Virus record (IMG/VR): IMGVR_UViG_3300025529_000020 | Coordinates: 1 to 37,835 of that record | Origin: a virus | Strand: one strand, 5' to 3' | Length of the DNA stretch: 37,835 nt | In this document: piece by piece, positions 13,918 through 34,036 of the stretch | Numbering within the stretch: the first letter of the stretch is position 1 | Layout of the letters: each line of letters begins with the position of its first letter | The notes under the pieces: generated by a model | Told to the model about the DNA's origin: nothing | The model's input: the letters and a program-made list of their open reading frames with translations, nothing else | Database searches by the model: none | Program-made: the position numbers and the translations under genes

Positions 13918-14018
13918 GGGTGACGAGTGACGAGTTTTTTCGTAGTTTTAGATTGTTCTATATGTATGTATATAGAGCAATATAAAACTAATGTTTAAAT
14001 CGTCATTCGTCATCACTC
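13918..14018. repeat. AT-rich island A, bounded by inverted repeats GTGACGAGTGACGAG / TCGTCATTCGTCATCAC
   Basis: About 65 bp of AT-rich DNA with nested palindrome CTATAT...ATATAG in an otherwise GC-rich genome, flanked by imperfect 15-bp inverted arms. Confidence 0.6.
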
Positions 14019-14030
14019 ACCCCATCTCCT

Positions 14031-15635
14031 CTACTCCGCGTAGACCGCTCCCTCACTCTCCGCGCTCTCCCCAGCGTCTGCCCATTCGATCCGCAGTCGG
14101 TGCGGACCAACGGTGCGTGGCTGTCCGAGTCTTACCGGGTAGATGATGACCCTGTTGATCGCGAGGTGGAGTAGGTCCCGCACCAGCGCTCGCTGTCCGC
14201 GTTCCACTGCGTCCCGCATCGCATCTGCCAGCGTTTCCGGATCGTCCACGAACCCCAAGTCCAACGTTGCTTGTGACCGCGCGATAGCGGCCTGCAGCTC
14301 TCGGAGTTCCGCGGACAGTGACCGCATCTCCGAGACGAACAGCTCCGGAGCGTCCTCGTAGGCTCCTGCCCTGAACGCGTCGTGGAGTCTTTGACGTACG
14401 GTCTCGATTTCTTGGATCCGTGCGCGCTTCGCCGCGATTTCTTCGGACTCGCTTGGTTGTTGTCGAGCTGTCCACCGCTCAGCGATGATCAGTGCGAGCA
14501 TGTCCGTGGGTTCAAGCGCGGTTATTCGGTTGAGCCACTCGGCGATCACGAGCTGCTCTGCGCGTTCTCTGGTGATCCGCGCTGGTGCGGGACATGTGGC
14601 TATCGCGGACGTGACGGATGCGCACACCTGTTGCACACCGGATGCTGGTGCGGAGCGTCCGCATGTGCCACACACCGCGATCCCGGTCAGGATGTGTTTT
14701 CTGTGTCTCGCAGTGGGGCGTACGATGCGGCGACGTGTAGAAAACGTGGTGATGTTCTTTGTGAGCCTTTCGAGGAGCTGCTCTCGCTCGTCCGGCGTGA
14801 GCACACCTTCCCCGATGCTGACGAGTCGACCTTCCTCGTCACGGTAAGGTTCTACCAGGTGGGATTTGCCGTTGTTTGCGCGGCCCGCTACCTGCAGCCC
14901 TGCGATTGCGGGGTTGGTGATCAGGCTGATGTAGGTCGTGACGTACCAGATGCCTCCACTGGGGCCGCGGATGCCGAGTTCGTTCTGTTCAGCAACCACG
15001 CTACGCGCTGAGCGTCCGCCGAGAATCTGTTCCGCTCCCCAACGCAGGACCTGGGCACGCGTTCGACCGTCTTCGGTCGGTGTGGTGTAGTCGGGACGTA
15101 CCTTCCGTGTTTTCGGATCTAAGAGGAGTCCCCACGGCACGCTTCCCCCGATCCATTCTCCGTCTCGGCGTTGCCGGGCCTTGCTGATGTGGATTCTGTG
15201 GGATAGGTCAACGCTGTACTGTCGAGCACGCTCCGCCTCATCGATGATGTGGCGACGGTCATGCTCGTCCAGCGTGTCGTAGCGGTCCCAGTAGAAGATG
15301 ACCCGGTGCTTGCCCAGCATGGGGAGTACGTCTTCTGCGCCTCGACGAGTAAGGCGGTCCAGCCTGAAAACCCACAGTGCCTCGACTTCTCCGCGTTGTA
15401 GTGCGGCAAGTGCCTTTCGGAACACCGGCCGTTCCCGGTCCGCGTATGCGGAGCCTAATTCTCGCCACACGTGCCGTACTTGGCTGCCTACCTGTGCTGC
15501 CCAGTGCCGGCCGATTTCCTCCTGTTCCCGGATGGAGACTTCGCGTAGGCGGTCGCCTTCGGAGAGAACCCGGGATTTCCTCACGTACAGGTCCACCGTT
15601 TTTGGTGGTGGGAGTAGTTGGGAGTGGGGGAACAC
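14031..15635 (-). CDS. Large serine recombinase (phage integrase)
   Basis: N-terminal resolvase-type catalytic motif VDLYVRKSRVLSEG...RLDRLTRR, central recombinase domain, Cys-rich zinc ribbon (CGTCGR...C...C) and coiled-coil C-terminus; GTG at 15635 with GGAGG RBS. Confidence 0.8.
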   Translation of the reverse strand: MFPHSQLLPPPKTVDLYVRKSRVLSEGDRLREVSIREQEEIGRHWAAQVGSQVRHVWRELGSAYADRERPVFRKALAALQRGEVEALWVFRLDRLTRRGAEDVLPMLGKHRVIFYWDRYDTLDEHDRRHIIDEAERARQYSVDLSHRIHISKARQRRDGEWIGGSVPWGLLLDPKTRKVRPDYTTPTEDGRTRAQVLRWGAEQILGGRSARSVVAEQNELGIRGPSGGIWYVTTYISLITNPAIAGLQVAGRANNGKSHLVEPYRDEEGRLVSIGEGVLTPDEREQLLERLTKNITTFSTRRRIVRPTARHRKHILTGIAVCGTCGRSAPASGVQQVCASVTSAIATCPAPARITRERAEQLVIAEWLNRITALEPTDMLALIIAERWTARQQPSESEEIAAKRARIQEIETVRQRLHDAFRAGAYEDAPELFVSEMRSLSAELRELQAAIARSQATLDLGFVDDPETLADAMRDAVERGQRALVRDLLHLAINRVIIYPVRLGQPRTVGPHRLRIEWADAGESAESEGAVYAE

Positions 15636-15668
15636 GAACGCCTCCAAGTGTGTGCTGATGTGCGTAGG

Positions 15669-15674
15669 AGTATA
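15669..15674 (-). promoter_or_regulatory. -10-like hexamer TATACT upstream of integrase start
   Basis: TATACT about 27 nt upstream of the GGAGG RBS, downstream of a terminator. Confidence 0.35.
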
Positions 15675-15705
15675 GCGACCTTGTGGAGTGTTCGTGTTTG
15701 GGCAT

Positions 15706-15744
15706 GAAAAAAGACCCGTTCGCCGTTGGTTGGTGAACGGGTCT
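15706..15744 (-). terminator. Intrinsic terminator (GACCCGTTC...GAACGGGTC stem followed by TTTTTT)
   Basis: 9-bp GC-rich stem and U6 tract on the minus strand; lies inside the over-extended ORF-track integrase ORF. Confidence 0.7.
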
Positions 15745-15762
15745 TGGTCCGCTGATTGGTGC

Positions 15763-15853
15763 GGGACCATCCCCACATGCGTGGGGAGCAGGTTTTGAGG
15801 TCCGTCTAGAGTAAATCCAGGCCGGGACCATCCCCACATGCGTGGGGAGCAGG
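15763..15853. repeat. Two 30-bp direct repeats GGGACCATCCCCACATGCGTGGGGAGCAGG (15763-15792 and 15824-15853), each with an internal hairpin
   Basis: Exact 30-bp duplication with 61-bp period; each copy contains palindrome CCCCAC-ATGC-GTGGGG. Confidence 0.8.
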
Positions 15854-19602: not shown

Positions 19603-20556
19603 TTACGCGGCTGCCAGCTCGACTACTACCCGCCTCAGCTTTCTCAGCGCAGCGGCCTTGAGGGAACGTACACGTCCGGGATCGATTCCCATGATGTGCG
19701 CGGTCTCGGCGACACTGAGTTCCGGACCGCCCAGTCCGGTCAGGTGTACCAGTGCCTCACGCTCCCGGGGGGACACGTGATCGAGCAGACGATGCACGAG
19801 GTCCCGAGTTTCCACACTGGCTAGTGCAGCGGCCGAGCGGTGGCACTCCGCCGTGTCCCCGATGGTCTGCGTGGCGCTCTCGTCACACAGTTCCGACACC
19901 GGGGTATCCACGGACACATAATGTAGGGCTTCGTGGATGGCATCGAACTGTGCGTAGGACAGACCACGTGCGGTTTTGTCGTCTAGCTGCTGTGCCACAT
20001 CTAGCCCTTCCCGCTCCCAGCGTTCAATACGGCGGTCCAGGATGGCGGCAGCCATGTCATCTCCGGAGTCCGCCATGTCCTGCAGTTCTCGGCCGGTCAA
20101 CCCCTCACGGTGGGCCCATTCGCGTGCGAGTACCGGGTCGTGTCCACACGCTTCCATGGCTCTCCAGTAGCGGTGCTGTGCGGACGAGGAGATGCGGAAC
20201 GGGGAGCTGGCTACAGCGGCCTCCCTCACAGCGTTCTGGATGTGGCGATACGCCACGGTCATAGGTTCTGCAGAACCATCCGGGTCGTAGTCTCGCAGAA
20301 CCTCCACCAGCGCCATTAGCGCGGCCTGGTAGAGGTCCGCGTACTCCGCACTACGCTGGTAGTTTCTGACCAGGTGGTGGATCTGGTCTTCGTAACGTGC
20401 GGCAAGGATGACAAGCCCTTCGTCTCCGTACGCGGGGAGCTGACGGTTGGGGACGTGATCAAGGCCCAGACGTTCTTCGTAGGCACGTGCGGCGGTGCGG
20501 ACTGTGGCACGGACGATGTGTGCGGGGGATCTGGTGGCGATCAGTTCATCCAACAT
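19603..20556 (-). CDS. Phage-encoded sigma-70 family RNA polymerase sigma factor
   Basis: Region 2-like segment DLYQAALMALVEVLRDYDP and region 4-like HTH LSVAETAHIMGIDPGRVRSLKAAALRKLRR. Confidence 0.75.
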   Translation of the reverse strand: MLDELIATRSPAHIVRATVRTAARAYEERLGLDHVPNRQLPAYGDEGLVILAARYEDQIHHLVRNYQRSAEYADLYQAALMALVEVLRDYDPDGSAEPMTVAYRHIQNAVREAAVASSPFRISSSAQHRYWRAMEACGHDPVLAREWAHREGLTGRELQDMADSGDDMAAAILDRRIERWEREGLDVAQQLDDKTARGLSYAQFDAIHEALHYVSVDTPVSELCDESATQTIGDTAECHRSAAALASVETRDLVHRLLDHVSPREREALVHLTGLGGPELSVAETAHIMGIDPGRVRSLKAAALRKLRRVVVELAAA

Positions 20557-23367: not shown

Positions 23368-25830
23368 CTAGCGTACCTGACCGAACACGTCACGGTTCCC
23401 ACTCTGCGGGGATGGGTGATCCGCCGCAGTGGGGGAGTTCGCGACCAGCCGCACTCCGATGAGTGTCTGACCACGCTTGGTTTTGACGCGGTCAATACCG
23501 CGTTCCTCTAGGGCCCTGTAGAACGTTTGTCGTTTCCACCGTTCCCGCGGAGGCAGGTTTTCCGCCTCACACCAGTCCATGTAGGCGTTGAACGCGGCGT
23601 TACCCAAAACGCGGTCCTCAGGGTTGCCGGTCTTCTCGAGAACGCCGGGTAGAAAACCCGACAGGGCATCCGAGATCTCTCGGTACTCCCTGGTCGCTTT
23701 ACGCACCACTCCCGGATCCTGCAGACCATTCCGGTACCACTCCACAGCCCCGCGGACTGCCCAAGCCAGAATACCTTCGGCTTCCGCACGGAGCTTATCG
23801 GTCAGCTCATAGTCGCGTTCGTGTGGCTCAAACTTCCTCCTAAACGGGATCATCTTCACCCGACGCCACAAACCATCGTCCTGACCACGGAACAGGGGCT
23901 TGTGGTTAGTGTCCATCAACAGCAGGAACGTGGGCACGAACTCGAAGAACTCCTGCCGCAGGAAGCGGGCCACCAGCACGTTTCCACCGGTGGCTTGCTT
24001 GAGCACTCCTTCCGCCATGGGCTTGTCACGGTCGCCTTCAGAAGCCCGGACAATTCGAGCGCCGCGTAGGGCAGCCAAGTCGTTGGGGATACCCCCCGAG
24101 CGCTCCTCGAAAGTACTGAACGGTGTAGTGCGGGAAATAGCAGAAAACACAGACGTGATCGTGTCCATGAACACGCTTTTCCCGTTCGCACCTTTACCCC
24201 ACAGCACAGCGAAGCATTGTTCGGCGGTGCTCCCTGTGATCCCGTACCCGATGAGCCGCTGCATGTACGCGGGCAATTCCGGGTTGTACGGGAAAATCTC
24301 CTCCAAGAATTTTTCCCAGCGCGGGCACTTGGCGTCCGGCCGGTAGTCCACGTCCACGTAGCGGGTGATCATGTCCTCACGGCGGTGGGGACGCAGCATT
24401 CCCGTACGCAGATCGATGGTGCCGTTTCGGACAGCCAACAGGTCCGCACGTGCGTCGAAATCGCTAGCGCGGACGCGCACACCAGGGACGCTTTGCAACT
24501 CGCGAATGATGTGGTCAATACTCCTGGTCATGAGGAAGCTTCGAGCTTCCTTGGCCTTCCCTACAAGAGCGAGTGCCGCACCAATGCGGTAAACCTCCTG
24601 TCGCACATGGGACTCGGACGGTACCCAGCAGCGTCCATCCCACACGAAAAAGCCCAGCCCAGGCGCGTAGCGGATACGGTTGTCCGCGAACGCCACCAGT
24701 ACGTGAGCCCGCATAACGTCCGTATCCGACTCTGAGAACCGGTCGTGGTACGCACGGTACAACTCGGCGGCGCGTTCCCCATCCTCACGAGTGACCGCAT
24801 CCAGCCCGGTGCGGCTCAGCGCTTCCTTAGCGTCGATGCGCCGTTCCTCGTCCGGAGTGCGGACAGGGCGGGCGGCGCGTACCGCTTCGTGGAGTTTCCC
24901 CGCGAACCCTGCAGGGTCGCGTTCCCGCCAGTCGGTGAGGTCGTCTCCGGCGTTGGGGATGACCAGGTGCCGAACCTCAACCCCGTGGTTACGGAGCGCG
25001 GTGGAGATAGTCTGAGTGAACCGCTGCCCCGCCTCGTCCGCGTCCCCCGCTACCACGACGAGGGAGTCCTTCAGCGCTTCCGCCAGTTCACGTGCGAGTG
25101 CCTCACTCGACATCGCTGCACCGCGGACCGCCACAGCGTCATAACCTGCAGCGACCGCGGTGAGCGCGTCCCCAGGCCCTTCCGTGATGACCACTACGCC
25201 GTAGGATCCGCCGCCGCGCAAAAATCCGTATCGTTGCCACACCTTCCCCTGGGGGTTGCTCAGGCTCACCCACCGGGCTTGACACTTCCCAGTCAGGTCC
25301 CTGCCCTGCAGGCCGCGCACAGTACCGTGGCGGTCGTAGAGAGGGACCACCAGTCGCGGAAACGCGCGGTACGTGCGGGACAGATACGGCAACGTGAACA
25401 CGTCACCGCCCGGGTCAACGCCCACACCGAGATCCGCGGCCTGGTCAACGGTCAACCCGAACCGCCGCTCCACATACTCGGCGGCTAGACGGGCATCGTC
25501 GGTGTACTGTTCCCGAAGCCGCTTGGACGTAGCGTCCACGTATGCGGCGACCGCGGCGATCTCTGCAGGGCCCACCTGGTCAGGCTGGGTGGTGATGAGC
25601 TGTTCCGGTGCGGTCCACTGAAACAGGTCGCGTTCCTGCATGCCGAGTCGTTTCAGAACGTCCTTGGTCTCGCATCCAGCGCGGCAAGTCATCAGCAGCC
25701 TTCCTTCGTTAGTCACCGCCAGCGCGAGTGACGGCCGCTGGTCATCATGTGCAGGACAGTGCACCACCATGTTGCGGCCCTCGTTGACAACGTGCGGAAA
25801 ACGCTCCAGGAACTTGTTGAAGTCGCGCAT
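23368..25830 (-). CDS. Bifunctional primase / D5-like helicase (zinc-binding, Toprim, P-loop NTPase)
   Basis: HCPAHDD...CRAGC zinc motif, Toprim-like ITEGPGDALT, Walker A GKGANGKS; ATG at 25830 with GAGGGGAAG RBS. Confidence 0.75.
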   Translation of the reverse strand: MRDFNKFLERFPHVVNEGRNMVVHCPAHDDQRPSLALAVTNEGRLLMTCRAGCETKDVLKRLGMQERDLFQWTAPEQLITTQPDQVGPAEIAAVAAYVDATSKRLREQYTDDARLAAEYVERRFGLTVDQAADLGVGVDPGGDVFTLPYLSRTYRAFPRLVVPLYDRHGTVRGLQGRDLTGKCQARWVSLSNPQGKVWQRYGFLRGGGSYGVVVITEGPGDALTAVAAGYDAVAVRGAAMSSEALARELAEALKDSLVVVAGDADEAGQRFTQTISTALRNHGVEVRHLVIPNAGDDLTDWRERDPAGFAGKLHEAVRAARPVRTPDEERRIDAKEALSRTGLDAVTREDGERAAELYRAYHDRFSESDTDVMRAHVLVAFADNRIRYAPGLGFFVWDGRCWVPSESHVRQEVYRIGAALALVGKAKEARSFLMTRSIDHIIRELQSVPGVRVRASDFDARADLLAVRNGTIDLRTGMLRPHRREDMITRYVDVDYRPDAKCPRWEKFLEEIFPYNPELPAYMQRLIGYGITGSTAEQCFAVLWGKGANGKSVFMDTITSVFSAISRTTPFSTFEERSGGIPNDLAALRGARIVRASEGDRDKPMAEGVLKQATGGNVLVARFLRQEFFEFVPTFLLLMDTNHKPLFRGQDDGLWRRVKMIPFRRKFEPHERDYELTDKLRAEAEGILAWAVRGAVEWYRNGLQDPGVVRKATREYREISDALSGFLPGVLEKTGNPEDRVLGNAAFNAYMDWCEAENLPPRERWKRQTFYRALEERGIDRVKTKRGQTLIGVRLVANSPTAADHPSPQSGNRDVFGQVR

Positions 25831-25889
25831 ACTTCCCCTCGCAGTGTGCTTACCTGAGAAACCGGTTCCGCGCTTGCGGTGTAACGGGC

Positions 25890-26267
25890 TTATTGCCGGA
25901 GCTCTTTGACCACGCGCACGAACGTCGCACCGGACATGACCACCAAGCACTCGTGGGGACCGCGACCACGAACTTTCACCGCGGCCACACCGAAAGGCAG
26001 TCCAGCGTTCCGCGCTTCCTGTTCGGCTTGGCGAACGTACGCGGGCAGCTCGTGACGTGCCGTGTTTTTACACTCCACGACAAACGGGACTACCCACAGA
26101 TCCCCTACGTCGTGTATCCCCTGCTGTGCTTGGCGACGTGCGTTCAGTGGGGATGTGGGATCTAGGAACTCGTCTCCATCAGGGGTCACGAGCCCCAGTT
26201 CTCGGTTGAGGTAGCGTGCGAACTCGGTTTCCCACCGAGTCCCACGTCTTTTATTCGGGTTAGCCAC
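25890..26267 (-). CDS. PD-(D/E)xK family nuclease, possible Holliday junction resolvase (VRR-NUC-like)
   Basis: E...D(VGD)...ExK (VVECK) arrangement in a 125-aa protein next to replication genes. Confidence 0.45.
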   Translation of the reverse strand: MANPNKRRGTRWETEFARYLNRELGLVTPDGDEFLDPTSPLNARRQAQQGIHDVGDLWVVPFVVECKNTARHELPAYVRQAEQEARNAGLPFGVAAVKVRGRGPHECLVVMSGATFVRVVKELRQ

Positions 26268-29635: not shown

Positions 29636-29672
29636 TCCTAGTTACAGGTCCGCAGCGTGGGGAGCGCGCGTA
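29636..29672 (-). promoter_or_regulatory. Conserved motif site 3 (GTTACAGGTCC ... GGGGAGCGCGCG) with adjacent A5T5 tract
   Basis: First copy of a tandemly duplicated ~117-bp promoter-like unit upstream of the exonuclease gene. Confidence 0.5.
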
Positions 29673-29752
29673 CCGTGGCAGAAAAATTTTTGGTCGACGT
29701 GCTCCGCACCTGGTGAGGGTTCGGATCGCCACGTCGCCCCTTCCGGATCTGT

Positions 29753-29790
29753 CTCTAGTTACAGGTCCGCGGCGGTGGGAGCGCGCGGGT
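29753..29790 (-). promoter_or_regulatory. Conserved motif site 4 (tandem duplicate of site 3)
   Basis: Second copy: GTTACAGGTCC at 29758-29768, GCGCGC at 29781-29786, A4T4 tract at 29798-29808. Confidence 0.5.
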
Positions 29791-29883
29791 CGCGGCAGAA
29801 AATTTTCTGACCGACGTAGCTGCAGCGGGATGGGCACGGAGAGTGAGGGCATGCCCTACGCGGAGTAGAGGAGATGGGGGAGT

Positions 29884-29977
29884 GGTGACGAGTGACGATT
29901 TAGACCTTGTTTTTGTAGTGCTATAGGAGAACCCATAGAACAATGCAAAAACAGGGTCTACATCGTCACTCGTCACC
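29884..29977. repeat. AT-rich island B, bounded by perfect 16-bp inverted repeats GGTGACGAGTGACGAT / ATCGTCACTCGTCACC
   Basis: Perfect 16-bp inverted arms, inner inverted repeat AGACCTTGTTTTTG/CAAAAACAGGGTCT, AT-rich centre. Confidence 0.7.
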
Positions 29978-30048
29978 CCTGGACGAAGAAACCCCGCCAT
30001 CCGTGTCCGGACAGCGGGGCTTCTACGTCGTGTTACTACACCGCGTCG

Positions 30049-30732
30049 CTACCCCAGCGCGGAGCGCAGTACGGCCACGCTTTCTTCAAGCGACACTATC
30101 GCGGCCTGGATCGTTTCCCGCGGCTTACCGGTCAGCGCCACGGTGGCAGACACCGCATCCCTTGCCGCGGTCACGTTCCGTACGTCCTCAGCCAGCTGGC
30201 TCACCGCGCGCACCACATCCTCCGGTGGGCTGTCGGGGTGTACTGTGATGGCCTCTAGTCGACGTAGCGCAGTTTCCGCGCGCTGCCGCTGGCGCTCTCG
30301 GCGTTCCGCCTGCCGTTCTTTCGGCGGTGTCGGGGTGATGCCGTAGTGCGCCAGCGCTTCCGGCGTGTACAGTCCGTTAGCGCGCATGTAGTCGATCCGC
30401 AGCGCTGCCACGTGGTATCTGATCAGCGACTGTAGAGACGCTTCGGAGTCGCTGGGGATGCCGGCTTTCTCATACAGCTGCTGGACTGCTTCCCGGTATC
30501 CCGGGGACGTGCCGCACAGATCTGGCCAACCATCCTTATCCCGGTAGCGTGCCCGCAGATGCAGCACTACCAGCGCTAGGTTGCGTGCTGTTTGTGTCGC
30601 ACGGCCCTGCAGTCTCACATAGTCGCGCACCAGTTTTGCGCCACGGTCGATGAGCTCGTGTACAGGTGCGTCATCCTGGAACACCGTGGCCTCGTCATCT
30701 CGCGGTGGAGTTACCAGCTGTAGTTGTGTCAT
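30049..30732 (-). CDS. Hypothetical protein (227 aa)
   Basis: ATG at 30732; Arg/Glu-rich helical segment ERQAERRERQRQRAE. Confidence 0.45.
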   Translation of the reverse strand: MTQLQLVTPPRDDEATVFQDDAPVHELIDRGAKLVRDYVRLQGRATQTARNLALVVLHLRARYRDKDGWPDLCGTSPGYREAVQQLYEKAGIPSDSEASLQSLIRYHVAALRIDYMRANGLYTPEALAHYGITPTPPKERQAERRERQRQRAETALRRLEAITVHPDSPPEDVVRAVSQLAEDVRNVTAARDAVSATVALTGKPRETIQAAIVSLEESVAVLRSALG

Positions 30733-30760
30733 ACGTCTAGCATACCGGGTGGATACACAA

Positions 30761-30795
30761 GAAAGACCCCGTGACGAGATTCACGGGGTCTTTCG
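30761..30795. terminator. Terminator-like hairpin (GACCCCGTG...CACGGGGTC flanked by T-rich runs on both strands)
   Basis: 9-bp GC stem with AAAG/CTTTCG flanks, just after the stop of the HExxH peptidase gene. Confidence 0.55.
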
Positions 30796-30804
30796 TCCGT
30801 GTTG

Positions 30805-31464
30805 TCATAGGTCGTCTGCGGAACGGTACAGCTCCCCACACTGCGTACATGCCACGGTCTGCGCGTTCAGCACAGTGCGGGACAGCCATAGTGGTCGTTC
30901 CGGAACACAGCGGCACACCGCCTTCGGGCGACGGTTGCTGCTGTGCGGGGTACGTTTCGTTCCGGTGTTCCGTTCCGCGTTCCGTTCCGGATCGGCGTTC
31001 TCCCACTCGCTGCGGCCCACTGCGGCTTCCGCCACGCACGCGGCCCACTCCCCGATCTCGGTGGGGAGCCTCATGTCCGCGTACCCCACATCTTGAGGGG
31101 GGTTGCCACCGCGCCACTCCAGTCCCATGTGTTCCGCTAGTGCGCGGAACCGCGAGTTATGATATCGGCCGCGCTTGGAGGTGTCCGCAACCCCGAGAGC
31201 GTGTGCAAGGGCATGTGCCGCTTCATGGGCAACTTGGCACACCACCTCACGAGGGGGGCGAGCTAGCGCATCGGGGAGTGTCTGCAGCACGTGTGTGTCG
31301 CCAAGAGAAGGCGTGAACCGCAACCACGCGTTCGTGCGTCCGATGGTGGGGACTACGTTCACGGTGACTGCGGGTAGTTGTGGTTCTCGTTCTCGCAGCA
31401 GGTCCCAGATGCGGCGTAGGGTGCGCGCGGTGACTTGCTCTGGGCTCATCTGTGTGGTTGACAT
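30805..31464 (-). CDS. HExxH zinc metallopeptidase (SprT-like or ImmA/IrrE-like) with C-terminal Cys-rich zinc ribbon
   Basis: VAHEAAHALAHALG (HExxH) and C-terminal CRCVPERP...CTQCGELY; ATG at 31464 with GGGGGA RBS (start uncertain, the ORF extends to 31524). Confidence 0.5.
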   Translation of the reverse strand: MSTTQMSPEQVTARTLRRIWDLLREREPQLPAVTVNVVPTIGRTNAWLRFTPSLGDTHVLQTLPDALARPPREVVCQVAHEAAHALAHALGVADTSKRGRYHNSRFRALAEHMGLEWRGGNPPQDVGYADMRLPTEIGEWAACVAEAAVGRSEWENADPERNAERNTGTKRTPHSSNRRPKAVCRCVPERPLWLSRTVLNAQTVACTQCGELYRSADDL

Positions 31465-31561
31465 GCTGACATCCCCCATTCCTATGTGTGGAGTACAGTC
31501 TATCGGTTGCGCAGTATGGGGCAACGGCCCCGGGAAGCGTTACCCGGGGCCGCTGTCGACG

Positions 31562-32401
31562 TTACGCCGGAACTGTCGTGGCCAGTTTCCGTCGCGCGTC
31601 GCGTAGCACGTTCCTTCCCCAGCGGTCCGTGCGTCCGTAGCGGGTCCCGATTTCCGCTCCGGTGAGCGTGGTTCCGTTCCGGAGCTGTTCCGCGACCCAT
31701 TCGACAGCGGAACGGCGTTCCGCGCTGTGCGGGGGTACCACGGACACCGGAACGGTCGTAGGGGCTCCCTCCTCCACTACCGGAACGCGGACATTCCGTT
31801 CCTCGTCCCGCTGTTGTTCCTCGTTCCGCTCTTCGTTCCGCGCTGTTCCGCTCTTCGTTCCGCTGCTGTTCCGTTCCTCGTTCCGTTCCTCGTCCCCCGG
31901 TTGTTCCGTGTTCCGTTCCTCGTCCCGTTCCCCATTCCGCTGTTGTTCCTCGTCCCGTTCCTCGTTCCGCTCTTCGTTCCGTTCCTCGTTCCGCTGCTGT
32001 TCCGCCCTGTTCCGTCTACCTGCAGCAAGGGCCACCGACGCAACGACCACTAGTCCATCTACAGACAGTGGCAGCAGGATGGCCACAAGCTCCGACTCCC
32101 CGTACTGGAGCAGGAGCCCGCGCATGTGACCGTAGGAGACCACGGCCGCGGCCAGCGCTACGAGGAAAGCTCCCACCCACTCAACTGCGGACAGCAGTCC
32201 ACGCGGACGCTGTCCACGAACCATCATCTCTGCGACCAACAGCAGCGCTACCGGTGCCCATGCCGCAAACAGCATGGCACCGATGTCTGTTCCGTCCGCG
32301 TTCCGTTCCGCGGCGTGTGCCACGTTCGCGGCGATGCTGGCTCCTGCGCCGAGTAGGAACGCTGTCCAGGGGATGGCGTTTGATCTCGGTTTTCCGCTCA
32401 C
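31562..32401 (-). CDS. Membrane protein with central EERN tandem-repeat low-complexity region (start uncertain)
   Basis: Three or more hydrophobic helices, then (EERN)n repeats, then Arg-rich C-terminus; first possible start after the upstream gene stop is GTG at 32401. Confidence 0.45.
   Translation of the reverse strand: MSGKPRSNAIPWTAFLLGAGASIAANVAHAAERNADGTDIGAMLFAAWAPVALLLVAEMMVRGQRPRGLLSAVEWVGAFLVALAAAVVSYGHMRGLLLQYGESELVAILLPLSVDGLVVVASVALAAGRRNRAEQQRNEERNEERNEERDEEQQRNGERDEERNTEQPGDEERNEERNSSGTKSGTARNEERNEEQQRDEERNVRVPVVEEGAPTTVPVSVVPPHSAERRSAVEWVAEQLRNGTTLTGAEIGTRYGRTDRWGRNVLRDARRKLATTVPA
31790..32015. repeat. Imperfect tandem array of GTTCC(G/T)-containing units (about 12-bp period) encoding EERN repeats
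   Basis: Plus strand reads TTCCGTTCCTCGTTCCGCT... repeatedly; translates as EERNEERNEERDEE on the minus strand. Confidence 0.8.
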
Positions 32402-32514
32402 TCGTGGGTTCTCCGTTCCGTTCCGCTGTTTCCGTTCCGGGGCTTCCGTTCCGCCAGCGGTCCGGGAATTCCGTTCCGCTGGCGTTCCTCTACTTCCGTT
32501 CCGCTGGTGTTCCT
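32402..32514. repeat. Iteron-like array: five direct copies of TTCCGTTCCGC(T/C)(G/A)G (minus-strand CCAGCGGAACGGAA) in intergenic DNA
   Basis: Copies at about 32414, 32431, 32445, 32470 and 32494 between the stop of gene 32515..32937 and the start of the membrane protein gene. Confidence 0.7.
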
Positions 32515-32937
32515 CTACTCCCGCTCCGCCACTCGGTGACCGTGTTCCGTGGCCTCCACGTAAACCGCTCCAGCCTTCCGAAACGCCCTCAGCATCCCCC
32601 GCTCCAAGAGCGCAGTGATATGGCGTGCGGTTACTCCTGCAGCGCGGCACGCACTCGGCGACATGTGCAGCGCTCCGTTCTTGATGATGGTGCGCAGTGC
32701 GTTCCGCTGCTTCGCCGAGAGTGTGCGCGCGTTGAGCCGTCGTCCGCGACGCACTGCTTCCGCGGCCTGTTCGGGGGTTGTATACCGGAACGATAGATAA
32801 CCCACCCCCAACAGGTAGGCCCTCCACGGCCGAGCGGGGTTGTCGCCACGCCAAGAGACCAGGCCGATGATCTCGGGGCCGTTCTCACTGAGAACCACGC
32901 GCTCTGGGCGGGACGGGCGGTTGTTCTGTGTGGTCAT
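32515..32937 (-). CDS. Hypothetical protein (140 aa), possibly DNA-binding
   Basis: ATG at 32937 with GGAGG RBS downstream of terminator H3; Arg/Lys-rich. Confidence 0.45.
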   Translation of the reverse strand: MTTQNNRPSRPERVVLSENGPEIIGLVSWRGDNPARPWRAYLLGVGYLSFRYTTPEQAAEAVRRGRRLNARTLSAKQRNALRTIIKNGALHMSPSACRAAGVTARHITALLERGMLRAFRKAGAVYVEATEHGHRVAERE

Positions 32938-32967
32938 AATGTCCTCCTGTACGTCTGGTGGTGTGTA

Positions 32968-33006
32968 TGAAAAAGCCCCGGGATTTCCCCGGGGCCGATC
33001 GGCCGG
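32968..33006 (-). terminator. Conserved terminator H3 (GCCCCGGGA..TCCCCGGGGC hairpin + CUUUUUCAU) with adjacent GGCCGATCGGCC palindrome
   Basis: Same hairpin core and CCGATCGG element as H1. Confidence 0.6.
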
Positions 33007-33300
33007 TCAGGGCCGACGACGGCGGTTGATCACCACCATGTCGGTCTCGTCCTCACCCAGGAACAGGGCGAAGATCTGCCATTCGGCAATGGAGTCGTTG
33101 AAGCCCTCCATCTCATCGTTTTCATCGAACGCGATGAAGTGGCGGCCGTTGCCCAGCGGGCGGATGTAGCGCGCGAAGCGCTCCTCTCCGGAGATGGATT
33201 CGCGGAAGCCGATCAGGGTTCCAGCAGCCACGTCGTGGCCGTGAATGGTGTGGATGGGGAAGGAGCGGGCGGCGGCGTTGGCGGCGGCGAAGCTGGTCAT
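33007..33300 (-). CDS. Hypothetical acidic protein (97 aa)
   Basis: ATG at 33300 with AAGGAGGA RBS downstream of a sigma-70-like promoter. Confidence 0.5.
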   Translation of the reverse strand: MTSFAAANAAARSFPIHTIHGHDVAAGTLIGFRESISGEERFARYIRPLGNGRHFIAFDENDEMEGFNDSIAEWQIFALFLGEDETDMVVINRRRRP

Positions 33301-33353
33301 TGGATCCTCCTTGTGTGTGCGTTGGTGGGGTGTTTCCCCCTTCGTGTGATTCC

Positions 33354-33383
33354 AATATAGCAGACTTGCTCAGTACTGCGCAA
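33354..33383 (-). promoter_or_regulatory. Sigma-70-like promoter (TTGCGC - 18 nt - TATATT)
   Basis: Minus-strand TTGCGC AGTACTGAGCAAGTCTGC TATATT; spacer nearly identical to the promoter at 18496-18524. Confidence 0.6.
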
Positions 33384-33393
33384 CCAATAGGGC

Positions 33394-33428
33394 AGAAAAA
33401 GTGTGGCCAACGGAAACCCGCTGGCCAT
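33394..33428 (-). terminator. Intrinsic terminator after the kinase gene
   Basis: GGCCAGCGG-gttt-CCGTTGGCC hairpin followed by ACACTTTTTCT on the minus strand. Confidence 0.6.
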
Positions 33429-33435
33429 CCACTAC

Positions 33436-33975
33436 CTATCCACCACGCAACAGCGCATCCACCGCCTCGTAGAGTTCCGGGATGTCTCCGGAGTTGGGCA
33501 GTACGGCGTCCGCGAGATCCGCGGGAATAGCGGTCTCGGACGGATGCGTGTTCGCAGGGCCCACACCAGGACGCTGTACCCACACGAGGGAGAACCCTCG
33601 ACTTCGCAGCGCAAGTGCTTCGTTGCGGTACCGCACATCGGTCACCACCACGGGACCGGACAGTGCATCCAGTCGGCGTAGCGCGTGCTCCACCCACACC
33701 GATTCGCCGAGTGAGTCCCGGACTCCCGCACCTAGGCCTTGGAGAAGTTCGCGCACTTCCGGGATCGTCCTCTTCACACGGTCCCAGCCGTACGCCTCGA
33801 CTGCGTCTCGCAGGCGTAGCCCATCCCTCGTGATGAGTGGGTTCGTACTCAGCAGCACACTTCGGACGGGATCCGCGAACGCTACACGCGTGTATCCGCG
33901 GCACGCTAGGTACTCGGCGATGGTGTCCTTGCCGCTGCCTGCATATCCGATGAGGCCGATTTTTGACCGGTTCAC
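33436..33975 (-). CDS. P-loop nucleotide kinase, dNMP kinase-like
   Basis: Walker A GLIGYAGSGKDT near the N-terminus (phage dNMP kinases carry SGKDT); GTG start with GGAGGTG RBS. Confidence 0.55.
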   Translation of the reverse strand: MNRSKIGLIGYAGSGKDTIAEYLACRGYTRVAFADPVRSVLLSTNPLITRDGLRLRDAVEAYGWDRVKRTIPEVRELLQGLGAGVRDSLGESVWVEHALRRLDALSGPVVVTDVRYRNEALALRSRGFSLVWVQRPGVGPANTHPSETAIPADLADAVLPNSGDIPELYEAVDALLRGG

Positions 33976-33989
33976 GTCACCTCCCCGGT

Positions 33990-34036
33990 GTAGGACCTAT
34001 AGGTGTTACAGGTCCCAGCACCGGGGAGTGCGCGTA
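33990..34036 (-). promoter_or_regulatory. Conserved motif site 5 (GTTACAGGTCC ... GGGGAGTGCGCG) with GGACCT...AGGTCC inverted repeat
   Basis: GTTACAGGTCC at 34005-34015; overlaps the stop codon of the upstream holin-like gene. Confidence 0.5.

What the first reader, a model, noticed from the sequence alone, without database searches (positions are those of the whole stretch)
32402..32514. Iteron-like array of five CGGAACGGAA direct repeats in intergenic DNA, with the same motif echoed in adjacent coding sequence
The 113-bp gap upstream of the membrane-protein gene contains five copies of TTCCGTTCCGC(T/C)(G/A)G. Further copies occur at 30962-30985, 31670-31690 and 32296-32310, and the motif underlies the EERN coding repeats at 31790-32015. 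Direct-repeat arrays of this type are typical of replication-origin iterons or operator arrays. Flanking genes encode a possible DNA-binding protein (32515-32937) and a membrane protein with an Arg-rich C-terminus.
Basis: seen in the sequence. Interest (0 to 1): 0.6.

Follow-up and report, generated by a model that had tools for sequence, protein, structure and literature searches.

The report
Binding-motif array fronting a membrane-anchored DNA-binding gene
The five repeats are real and are the densest part of a 1.6-kb patch of one short DNA word, written through a phage gene for a membrane-anchored DNA-binding protein and probably that protein's own docking site rather than a replication origin.

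Summary
TTCCGTTCCG occurs 9 times in 37.8 kb (0.1 expected), always on one strand, always between 30968 and 32503; five copies lie in the 113-bp gap.

The array is the 5' edge of a 2.5-kb accessory cassette (30034-32524): a DUF2637 four-helix membrane protein with a C-terminal helix-turn-helix (HTH), an SprT-like protein and a repressor-c-like protein. A phage whose primase-helicase is 93.5% identical lacks both cassette and motif, so an origin for that enzyme is unlikely.

The core word CGGAAC occurs 35 times in the cassette (1.5 expected). It sits in all three reading frames and far exceeds synonymous-codon shuffles, so it is selected at the nucleic-acid level. It persists in a relative at 50% protein identity that has a different upstream gene.

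Two unrelated elements whose DUF2637 proteins share the same recognition-helix type also carry CGGAAC clusters. Other helix types go with other CGGNNN words inside their own genes.

Best reading (about 0.45): these are cognate sites of the DUF2637 HTH, used for self-regulation and/or tethering the element's DNA to the membrane. Binding is inferred, not shown.

Rivals: an RNA leader element, a TraB/clt-like site, an operator for the upstream winged-helix protein, origin iterons, neutral slippage.

The parts
32402..32514 (-). Intergenic array. It holds five exact CGGAACGGAA copies on the coding strand (+ strand starts 32416, 32430, 32444, 32469, 32494) plus a one-mismatch copy at 32411. The last copy supplies the GGAG ribosome-binding site 9 nt before the GTG start. 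The stop codon of the upstream gene abuts the first unit.
32469..32518 (-). Two 25-bp tandem units (TTCCGTTCCGCTGGYGTTCCTCTAC on the + strand), a recent duplication within the array.
   Evidence: (D5)
32452..32484 (-). GC-rich hairpin or inverted repeat. The 9-bp arms are 32452-32460 and 32476-32484 (CGCCAGCGG / CCGCTGGCG) around a 15-nt loop that contains one motif copy. It is conserved in 8 of 9 close relatives and shows compensatory arm variants.
   Evidence: (I17)
31562..32401 (-). DUF2637 gene (279 aa, GTG start). It encodes four transmembrane helices (about 32021-32377), an EERN-type repeat linker (about 31790-32015) and a C-terminal 3-helix HTH (31562-31747). It carries 20 CGGAAC copies on the coding strand, spread over all three frames.
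31790..32015 (-). Linker-coding repeats with 12-, 30- and 42-bp periods, built on GAGGAACGGAAC. They contain five of the GGAACGGAA copies.
30897..32503 (-). Span that holds 33 of the cassette's 35 coding-strand CGGAAC copies (1.5 expected for the cassette). Seven reverse-orientation copies also lie in the cassette (1.7 expected).
30805..31464 (-). SprT-like gene (HExxH motif plus zinc ribbon). Motif copies lie near its 3' end (30955-30989). There are 7 CGGAAC copies against 1.3 in codon shuffles. In relatives the copies are read in different frames (PERN versus TGTER).
30049..30732 (-). Last gene of the cassette, similar to Streptomyces phage repressor protein c (PF25746). It carries only 2 motif copies.
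32515..32937 (-). Upstream 140-aa gene encoding an N-terminal sheet-plus-helix domain and a MarR-like winged helix. It lies outside the cassette and is present without the array in L014.
30034..32524 (-). Accessory cassette as delimited against the related phage L014: array, DUF2637, SprT-like and repressor-c-like genes.

Best explanation
The five repeats are the non-coding, densest part of a field of about 35 same-strand copies of a short DNA word (core CGGAAC, extended GCGGAACGGAA). The field overlays the DUF2637 gene, the spacer in front of it and the 3' end of the next gene. I propose these are the cognate double-stranded DNA sites of the C-terminal HTH of the DUF2637 protein, whose four N-terminal helices anchor it in the cytoplasmic membrane and whose long flexible linker lets the HTH reach DNA. 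Many HTH copies would then load onto the phage DNA at their own gene. The array overlapping the ribbon-binding site and start would give self-regulation, and the whole field would tether the element's DNA to the membrane.

Shown: the motif field, its selection at nucleic-acid level, its linkage to the cassette, and the protein architecture. Inferred: that the HTH is the binder, and what binding achieves.
For: 1. Localisation. 35 of the window's 56 coding-strand CGGAAC copies lie in the 2.5-kb cassette (expected 1.5, Poisson P = 2e-35). Reverse-orientation copies are also enriched (7 against 1.7, P = 0.002), which favours a duplex-DNA signal.

2. Selection below the protein level.
- CGGAAC falls in all three frames of the DUF2637 gene (11, 5 and 4 copies).
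- Glu-Arg pairs use GAA CGG in 8 of 11 cases, against 5 of 62 elsewhere in the window.
- Synonymous permutation of the gene gives 10.0 +/- 2.0 copies (maximum 17 of 2000) against 20 observed.
- The SprT-like gene has 7 against 1.3 +/- 1.0.
- In L008 the figures are 26 observed, 11.3 +/- 1.9 under permutation and 4.2 +/- 1.8 with background codon usage.

3. Conservation. Nine close relatives keep 3-6 perfect copies while linkers and copy numbers change. L008, at 50% protein identity and with an unrelated upstream gene, keeps 33 CGGAAC copies within 1 kb.

4. Linkage. The array starts exactly at the cassette boundary. L014 lacks both the cassette and any cluster.

5. Only DUF2637 is shared by all lineages with CGGAAC clusters. 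These are the window clade, L008, L010 and L200, and all have the helix [ST]DRW[GA]R[NK]. SprT-like and repressor-c-like genes are absent from L010 and L200.

6. Family pattern. Other helix types go with other words inside their own genes.
- ...SWGRT and ERWGRDQ go with CGGCAG.
- ERWGRAR goes with CGGCAC.
- L213 has CGGCAAC/GTTGCCG, written with rare TTG Leu codons.
- ...RTVRR[HY]L goes with CGGACA, including a rare AGA Arg codon.
- DUF2637 genes show such clustering far more often than 409 neighbouring genes: 24% against 3% at P < 1e-5, Mann-Whitney P = 2e-7.

7. The C-terminal 61 aa fold confidently (pLDDT 89.6) into a three-helix bundle. Non-significant Foldseek matches are DNA-bound HTH domains, including sigma region 4 on -35 DNA at 31-33% identity. 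Some family members carry Pfam Sigma70_r4_2 or GerE hits.
Against: - No binding has been measured.
- Helix type and motif type are inherited together, so their correlation would appear under any heritable cause. The classes were defined after seeing the data.
- Several WGR-type members show no clear cluster (L012, L206, L180, L182).
- In L010 the forward cluster lies 3 kb from the DUF2637 gene, behind a TraB-like gene.
- The strong strand bias and the covarying hairpin would also suit an RNA element.
- Unit spacings of 12, 14 and 25 bp are not helically phased.
Confidence: 0.45

Rival explanations
1. RNA-level element. The array is an intercistronic leader of the DUF2637 mRNA. Repeated single-stranded GGA-rich units and a conserved hairpin would control translation, processing or termination, or bind an RNA-binding protein.
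For: - Copies are overwhelmingly on the sense strand.
- The last unit forms the ribosome-binding site.
- No terminator separates the 140-aa gene from DUF2637, so the array is probably transcribed.
- Hairpin 32452-32484 pairs in 95.6% of cells, with 3 of 9 pairs changed on both sides and G-U wobbles in L001. Only 7 of 500 shuffles reach these values.
Against: - Reverse-complement copies are also enriched, and they dominate in L213 and L234. That makes no sense for an RNA signal.
- The motif extends 1.4 kb into and past the coding sequence.
- No Rfam family matches.
- The hairpin is absent from L007.
- Only five distinct hairpin haplotypes exist, and the arm swaps could come from shuffling of repeat units.
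Confidence: 0.12
2. clt-like locus. The repeats are recognition sequences for a TraB/FtsK-type DNA translocase supplied by a resident conjugative element, as with the 8-bp TRS clusters of Streptomyces plasmids. The phage cassette would have inherited or exploited them.
For: - DUF2637 genes lie within 5 kb of a TraB/FtsK-like gene in 32 of about 160 loci.
- In L010 nine CGGAAC copies lie just downstream of the TraB-like gene, the classical clt position.
- TraB is reported to recognise clusters of about four short repeats, GACCCGGA in pSVH1 (PMC5133688, PMC4170104).
- The family's words share a CGGA or CGGC core.
Against: - Pfam scans of the window's larger ORFs found no FtsK/TraB-like ATPase.
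- Clusters occur in many DUF2637 loci with no TraB-like gene nearby (L011, L181, L189, L200, L213, L228, L230, L241).
- The motif is maintained in a lytic/temperate siphophage cassette.
- A field of 35 copies over 1.6 kb is far larger than described clt loci.
Confidence: 0.12
3. Operator array for the upstream 140-aa winged-helix protein.
For: - The genes are adjacent, and the protein's stop codon abuts the first unit.
- The inverted repeat 32452-32484 could seat a dimer.
Against: - L014 keeps a 72%-identical protein with no array or cluster.
- L008 keeps the array with an unrelated upstream protein (BLASTP E = 0.52).
- The cassette boundary falls between this gene and the array.
Confidence: 0.08
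4. Iterons of the phage replication origin.
For: - It is a direct-repeat array in the early (replication) region.
- Repeats run into a protein-coding linker, as in lambda ori inside gene O (my knowledge).
- P4-type primase-helicases bind short repeated octamers (my knowledge).
Against: - A phage whose primase-helicase is 93.5% identical has no such cluster in the 20.4 kb read.
- The array belongs to a dispensable cassette.
- No AT-rich stretch lies beside it; the nearest is 2.5 kb away at 29886-29950.
- Units are 10-14 bp and not helically phased.
- No initiator-type protein was found in the cassette.
Confidence: 0.07
5. No function. A slippage-prone pentamer or 12-mer microsatellite expanded in the linker and spread to the spacer by gene conversion.
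For: - Copy number and unit arrangement differ in every relative, with obvious recent tandem duplications.
- The linker is low-complexity and tolerant of change.
- The spacer reads as EERN-like peptide in two frames.
Against: - Isolated, non-tandem copies occur in all three frames.
- Copies exceed synonymous shuffles.
- Copies occur in the transmembrane-domain and SprT-like coding regions.
- The same word persists at 50% protein divergence and in unrelated elements.
- Rare codons are used to spell the word in other family members.
Confidence: 0.08

Closest known systems
Lambda-type origin inside the initiator gene (ori iterons within gene O, whose interdomain linker is encoded by ori DNA) - from my knowledge
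   Same: Repeated binding sites are written into the coding sequence, especially the flexible linker, of the gene for the presumed binding protein. The cis site and the trans factor travel as one unit.
   Different: - The protein here is membrane-anchored and shows no similarity to initiators.
- The cassette is dispensable in a close relative.
- There is no AT-rich region.
- Sites are 6-11 bp, about 35 in number, and spread over 1.6 kb.
clt / TraB recognition sequences of Streptomyces conjugative plasmids (PMC5133688, PMC4170104)
   Same: - Both are clusters of short GC-rich direct repeats with a CGGA core on actinomycete mobile elements.
- DUF2637 genes often neighbour TraB-like genes.
- The membrane protein SpdB2, which binds DNA, is part of that machinery.
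   Different: - The window has no TraB.
- pIJ101 SpdB gave no Pfam hit at all, so no DUF2637 match.
- SpdB2 is reported to bind DNA non-specifically.
- The array here is much larger and lies inside a gene.
Centromere-like direct-repeat arrays bound by small DNA-binding proteins (parC/ParR, tubC/TubR, omega heptads) - from my knowledge
   Same: Several short same-orientation repeats lie upstream of an operon and would be bound cooperatively, giving both autoregulation and a handle on the DNA.
   Different: - Pfam scans of the window's larger ORFs found no partition NTPase.
- The proposed anchor is the membrane itself, through the binder's own transmembrane domain.
Membrane-anchored phage DNA-organising protein p16.7 of phi29 - from my knowledge
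   Same: A phage early protein with a membrane anchor and a DNA-binding domain that would hold phage DNA at the membrane.
   Different: - p16.7 has one transmembrane helix and binds without a repeated sequence motif.
- There is no homology between the two.
Sigma region 4 / LuxR-GerE type HTH recognising GGAAC-like -35 elements (ECF sigma factors) - from my knowledge
   Same: The core word contains GGAAC. The domain's best, non-significant Pfam and Foldseek matches include sigma region 4. Some family members carry Sigma70_r4_2 or GerE Pfam hits.
   Different: - The similarity is not significant.
- No -10 partner lies at promoter spacing: GGAAC-N15-19-CGTT is absent from the array.
- The protein has no sigma region 2.

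Membership tests
Replication-origin iterons | Array linked to, and conserved with, the replication initiator or helicase | tested here: not met
   L014 has a primase-helicase 93.5% identical to the window's but no array or CGGAAC cluster in the 20.4 kb read. The array lies in a dispensable cassette. About 6 kb of that contig was not read.
Replication-origin iterons | Adjacent AT-rich DNA-unwinding region | tested here: not met
   The lowest 40-bp GC near the array is 0.35 at 29886-29950, 2.5 kb away. The 1-kb bin that holds the array has 64% GC.
Replication-origin iterons | Initiation of replication at the site | not testable with these tools
   This needs origin mapping.
Operator array / autoregulated gene | Repeats overlap the promoter or translation start of the regulated gene | tested here: met
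   The last unit provides the GGAG sequence 9 nt before GTG 32401. The consensus scan found no sigma-70-type promoter in the gap.
Operator array / autoregulated gene | Sequence-specific binding by a cognate regulator | not testable with these tools
   Only indirect evidence exists: helix type and motif type co-occur.
clt / TraB recognition sequences | Cluster of four or more short direct repeats | tested here: met
   There are five exact 10-mers in 113 bp.
clt / TraB recognition sequences | Element encodes a TraB/FtsK-like translocase | tested here: not met
   Pfam scans of the window's larger ORFs found no such protein. One is present in L010 and in 31 other DUF2637 loci.
Partition centromere (parC, parS, tubC) | Adjacent partition NTPase (ParA, ParM or TubZ) | tested here: not met
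   Pfam found none among the window ORFs scanned. L200 does have a ParA-like ORF beside its DUF2637 gene, judged by eye.
Known RNA families (Rfam 15) | Covariance-model match | tested here: not met
   There is no match in 32402-32514 at E up to 1.
ECF-sigma promoters | GGAAC -35 element with a CGTT/GTT -10 element 15-19 nt downstream | tested here: not met
   There are four matches in the whole window against 1.8 expected, and none in the array on the coding strand.
DUF2637 (PF10935) membrane proteins | Pfam match above the gathering score, with a four-helix transmembrane domain | tested here: met
   PF10935 scores 40.3 bits against a cutoff of 22.8. The alignment with 10 homologues shows the conserved transmembrane core.

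The most novel reading that the evidence does not exclude
DUF2637-HTH proteins form a widespread, uncharacterised class of membrane tethers for actinobacterial mobile DNA (phages, integrative conjugative elements, plasmids). Each would recognise a lineage-specific hexamer (CGGAAC, CGGCAG, CGGCAC, CGGACA and others) that evolution has written, against codon preference, into the protein's own coding sequence and leader. The gene would thus double as the cis-acting membrane-attachment or hand-over site of the element.
Probability: 0.3. Interest if true: 0.8.

Novelty: new variant of a known kind. Interest (0 to 1): 0.62.

Why it matters
If the reading holds, it assigns a first function to a domain of unknown function that is common on actinomycete phages and conjugative elements: sequence-specific anchoring of element DNA to the membrane. 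It also gives a clear example of a binding-site array superimposed on all three reading frames of the binder's own gene.

The prediction is directly testable: helix type should determine hexamer preference. That bears on how DNA is recruited to the membrane for double-stranded DNA transfer, spreading, replication or exclusion in Actinobacteria.

It also warns annotators that low-complexity linkers such as the EERN repeats can be dictated by DNA signals rather than protein needs.

Tried and rejected
- **Known phages and plasmids.** DNA searches of GenBank phages with 30000-34000 found no near match. The distant search found only a 98-bp hit in the dNMP kinase gene. tblastn of the DUF2637 protein or its transmembrane domain against phages and plasmids found nothing.
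- **Scan for the 10-mer pair.** A viral-contig scan gave 84 loci, almost all unrelated microsatellites or coding repeats. Only the two known relatives were real.
- **Scan for the recognition helix.** A scan for DNA encoding DRWGR[NK] mostly found small-terminase motifs (WYLERKYPDRWGRK) and one known relative. A profile of the C-terminal domain could not be used for a locus search.
- **Family-wide CGGAA.** Pooled 5-mer counts over 156 distant DUF2637 loci showed only Ala/Pro-rich composition. The motif is lineage-specific.
- **Fold and sequence searches of the HTH domain.** All were non-significant.
- **pIJ101 SpdB as a DUF2637 member.** Rejected: it has no Pfam hit.
- **ECF-type promoters in the array.** Rejected.
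- **CRISPR-like array.** Rejected on sight: units of 10-25 bp with no spacers.
- **Longer DUF2637 ORF.** The ORF stays open from TTG 32854 through the array, and read-through of the upstream TAG would add an EERQRNG-like tail. No in-frame start lies in the gap, and all gene calls and relatives use the GTG at 32401, so I treat the gap as non-coding.

Full report
**Setting.** The window is a 61%-GC siphophage or prophage genome, distantly related to the phiC31 group. Its Toprim/D5 primase-helicase (23368-25950) is about 52% identical to those of TG1, phiBT1 and phiC31. It also carries a serine integrase, a Gp3-like recombination directionality factor, an exonuclease, a dNMP kinase and a sigma-70-family gene. 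Genes around the finding run on the minus strand, so the motif on the coding strand reads CGGAACGGAA.

- Exact TTCCGTTCCG occurs 9 times against 0.10 expected. No dinucleotide shuffle of 100 reached 9. All copies are on the + strand and all lie in 30968-32503. Five lie in the gap 32402-32514.
- The 9-mer occurs 14 times, and only in that stretch of the 37.8 kb.
- Tandem Repeats Finder reports 14-bp and 25-bp units in the gap, and 12-, 30- and 42-bp units in the EERN-coding stretch.
- The gap is non-coding. The upstream ORF ends with TAG at 32515-32517. The DUF2637 gene begins at GTG 32401 behind a GGAG that belongs to the last repeat. Gene calls and protein N-termini in relatives agree.

**What flanks the array.**
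- Downstream (31562-32401) is a 279-aa DUF2637 protein (PF10935, 40.3 bits). It has four transmembrane helices, a variable charged linker and a conserved C-terminal domain. AlphaFold2 folds that domain into a confident three-helix bundle (pLDDT 89.6).
- Fold searches of the domain are not significant. They are populated by DNA-bound HTH domains, including sigma region 4. Some family members carry Sigma70_r4_2 or GerE Pfam hits.
- Next come an SprT-like gene (30805-31464) and a gene resembling Streptomyces phage repressor c (30049-30732).

**The array belongs to an accessory cassette, not to the replication machinery.**
- Alignment with a related phage contig (L014) shows homology through the 140-aa gene. 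It then breaks at 32524 and resumes at 30033. The array, DUF2637, SprT-like and repressor-c-like genes thus form one 2.5-kb insertion.
- In L014 that slot holds non-coding DNA and a lipoprotein gene.
- L014's primase-helicase is 93.5% identical to the window's. Yet the 20.4 kb read, from the tail genes to past the primase, has no CGGAAC cluster and only a single GGAACGGAA.
- There is also no AT-rich stretch next to the array. Together these make origin iterons unlikely. About 6 kb of that contig was not read, so the point is not absolute.
- The same comparison weakens the 140-aa protein as the binder, because it is conserved without the array. Conversely L008, a phage whose DUF2637 protein is only 50% identical, keeps the motif array behind an unrelated upstream gene.

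**The gap array is the tip of a larger feature.**
- The hexamer CGGAAC occurs 35 times on the coding strand inside the cassette, against 1.5 expected from the rest of the window (P = 2e-35). The reverse orientation is also enriched (7 against 1.7, P = 0.002).
- The same concentration is seen in every relative that has the cassette, and in none that lacks it.
- Within the DUF2637 gene the hexamer sits in all three frames (11, 5 and 4 copies). Glu-Arg pairs are spelled GAA CGG in 8 of 11 cases, against 5 of 62 elsewhere.
- Shuffling synonymous codons within the gene gives 10.0 +/- 2.0 copies (maximum 17 of 2000) against 20 observed. The SprT-like gene has 7 against 1.3 +/- 1.0.
- In L008 the gene has 26 copies, against 11.3 +/- 1.9 under permutation and 4.2 +/- 1.8 under the locus's codon usage. 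CGG supplies 19 of its 23 Arg codons, against 36% in neighbouring genes.
- Near the 3' end of the SprT-like gene, relatives keep two CCGGAACGGAAC copies that are translated in different frames (PERN and TGTER) within one gene.

The word is therefore maintained at the nucleic-acid level. The EERN repeats are a consequence of it rather than its cause.

**Array dynamics.** Nine variants from the close clade each have 3-6 perfect 10-mers plus decayed copies. They are arranged as 14-nt (GTAGCGGAACGGAA) or 22-25-nt units that have clearly duplicated and been lost. Eight of the nine also carry a GC-rich hairpin (window 32452-32484) whose 9-bp arms vary in a compensatory way: CCAG/CTGG, CTGG/CCAG and TTGG/CCAA. 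Pairing is 95.6% and 3 of 9 pairs change on both sides, values reached by only 7 of 500 shuffles. With five distinct haplotypes, and with repeat-unit shuffling as a possible source, this is modest evidence. It keeps an RNA or cruciform component alive. No Rfam family matches. No terminator separates the 140-aa and DUF2637 genes.

**Who binds?**
- Among 159 distant DUF2637 loci from genomes and metagenomes, clustered hexamers are almost all GC-only words. CGGAAC clusters occur in exactly two loci. One is L010, a conjugative-element-like locus where the cluster follows a TraB/FtsK-like gene. The other is L200, a Kribbella contig where the cluster lies in the DUF2637 gene itself.
- Both encode DUF2637 proteins whose HTH recognition helix is of the same [ST]DRW[GA]R[NK] type as the window clade and L008. 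About 17 loci with WGR followed by D, A, T or E have no CGGAAC cluster.
- L010 and L200 lack the SprT-like and repressor-c-like genes. DUF2637 is therefore the only cassette protein shared by all four lineages that carry the motif.

**Other helix types have their own words inside their own genes.**
- ...SWGRT and ERWGRDQ go with CGGCAG (L011, L183, L181).
- ERWGRAR goes with CGGCAC (L189).
- L213 has CGGCAAC/GTTGCCG, spelled with repeated rare TTG Leu codons.
- ...[DK]RTVRR[HY]L goes with CGGACA in eight loci from several genera, where Ser is always AGC and one Arg is AGA.
- All of these exceed synonymous permutation.
- As a control, the best local hexamer enrichment reaches P < 1e-5 in 24% of 78 DUF2637 genes, against 3% of 409 neighbouring genes of similar length (Mann-Whitney P = 2e-7).
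- Caveats: the classes were drawn after inspection, helix and linker are co-inherited, and some members show no cluster.

**Mechanism proposed.** The DUF2637 protein is inserted in the membrane with both termini inside. This is inferred from four helices and the positions of basic residues. Its HTH reaches out on a flexible linker of 60-100 residues and binds CGGAAC words on duplex DNA. The gap array places the highest site density over the gene's own ribosome-binding site and start, which suggests feedback control of a membrane protein. The wider field would hold the element's DNA at the membrane. What that serves is not resolved. Candidates are replication organisation, hand-over to a translocase in conjugative elements (32 of about 160 DUF2637 loci have a TraB-like neighbour), or exclusion (the same slot holds a lipoprotein gene in L014). 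I put 0.45 on the HTH-site reading. Every binding step is inference.

**Rivals.**
- RNA leader element, 0.12. For: strand bias, hairpin covariation, overlap with the ribosome-binding site. Against: enrichment of reverse copies here, and their predominance in L213 and L234.
- clt-like TraB site, 0.12. For: L010's layout, the family's neighbourhood, and published TRS clusters (PMC5133688, PMC4170104). Against: the phage has no TraB, and many clustered loci lack one nearby.
- Operator for the 140-aa protein, 0.08.
- Origin iterons, 0.07.
- Neutral slippage, 0.08.

**Novelty.** The two papers in the library that mention DUF2637 each mention it once; I did not read them. A direct-repeat binding array is a known kind of thing. 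A membrane-anchored HTH family whose genes are saturated, against codon preference, with lineage-specific hexamers appears undescribed. I rate it a new variant of a known kind, with moderate to high interest because the helix-to-hexamer prediction is immediately testable.

Noticed in passing
window 29640-29840 (- strand); also L005/L014 (L005 6100-6300, 6700-6930): There are two tandem promoter-like units of about 100 bp. Each has an AAAATTTT palindrome, then CGCGCGCTCCC, then GGACCTGTAACTAG, then a ribosome-binding site. The second unit precedes the exonuclease gene. The first carries a truncated duplicate of that gene's first codons. The same unit recurs at least four times in the related phage. 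It is probably the early promoter/operator type of this phage group.
   Followed up: partly
window 29880-29985: This is the AT-richest stretch of the early region (40-bp GC 0.35). It forms a long imperfect palindrome, which gave chance Rfam hits to miRNA hairpins on both strands. It is homologous to L014 10738-11050, so it is not part of the cassette. It is a better candidate origin or regulatory hairpin than the array.
   Followed up: no
window 30034-32524 versus L014 10414-11931: The slot between the 140-aa gene and the exonuclease gene is a swap site. The window carries the DUF2637/SprT-like/repressor-c-like cassette there. L014 carries non-coding DNA and a 123-aa lipoprotein gene (lipobox LTVAGC), a typical exclusion-type moron.
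   Followed up: partly
L010 4690-4930: In a conjugative-element-like contig, nine CGGAAC copies lie in the intergenic region just downstream of a 767-aa FtsK/TraB-like gene, the classical clt position. The reverse word (CCGTTCCG, read as PVP) is clustered in that element's DUF2637 linker.
   Followed up: partly
L213 4830-5640; L251, L235, L240, L227 linker regions: Other DUF2637 genes carry their own words in their linkers, often at 12-bp spacing. Examples are CGGCAAC/GTTGCCG and CGGACA, spelled with rare codons (TTG Leu, AGA Arg, and AGC always used for Ser).
   Followed up: yes
window 19603-20556 (-): The phage encodes a 317-aa sigma-70-family protein (regions 2 and 4). As far as I know phiC31 does not. 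Its promoters were not sought.
   Followed up: no
window 13935-14000: This is the most AT-rich spot of the whole window (40-bp GC 0.18), immediately beside the serine integrase gene (14031-15839). It is possibly attP.
   Followed up: no
L008 4925-4960 and 5835-5870: An 18-bp palindrome, TTGT(G/T)CAGTACTG(A/C)ACAA, follows hairpin terminators before successive early genes. It is reminiscent of the conserved inverted repeats bound by the phiC31 repressor (my knowledge). It was not seen in the window.
   Followed up: no
L179 (JAFIDK010000020.1): A 5.3-kb contig of this phage clade is deposited in an Algoriphagus aestuarii (Bacteroidota) assembly. This is probably contamination rather than a host clue. 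The host of the window remains unknown.
   Followed up: no
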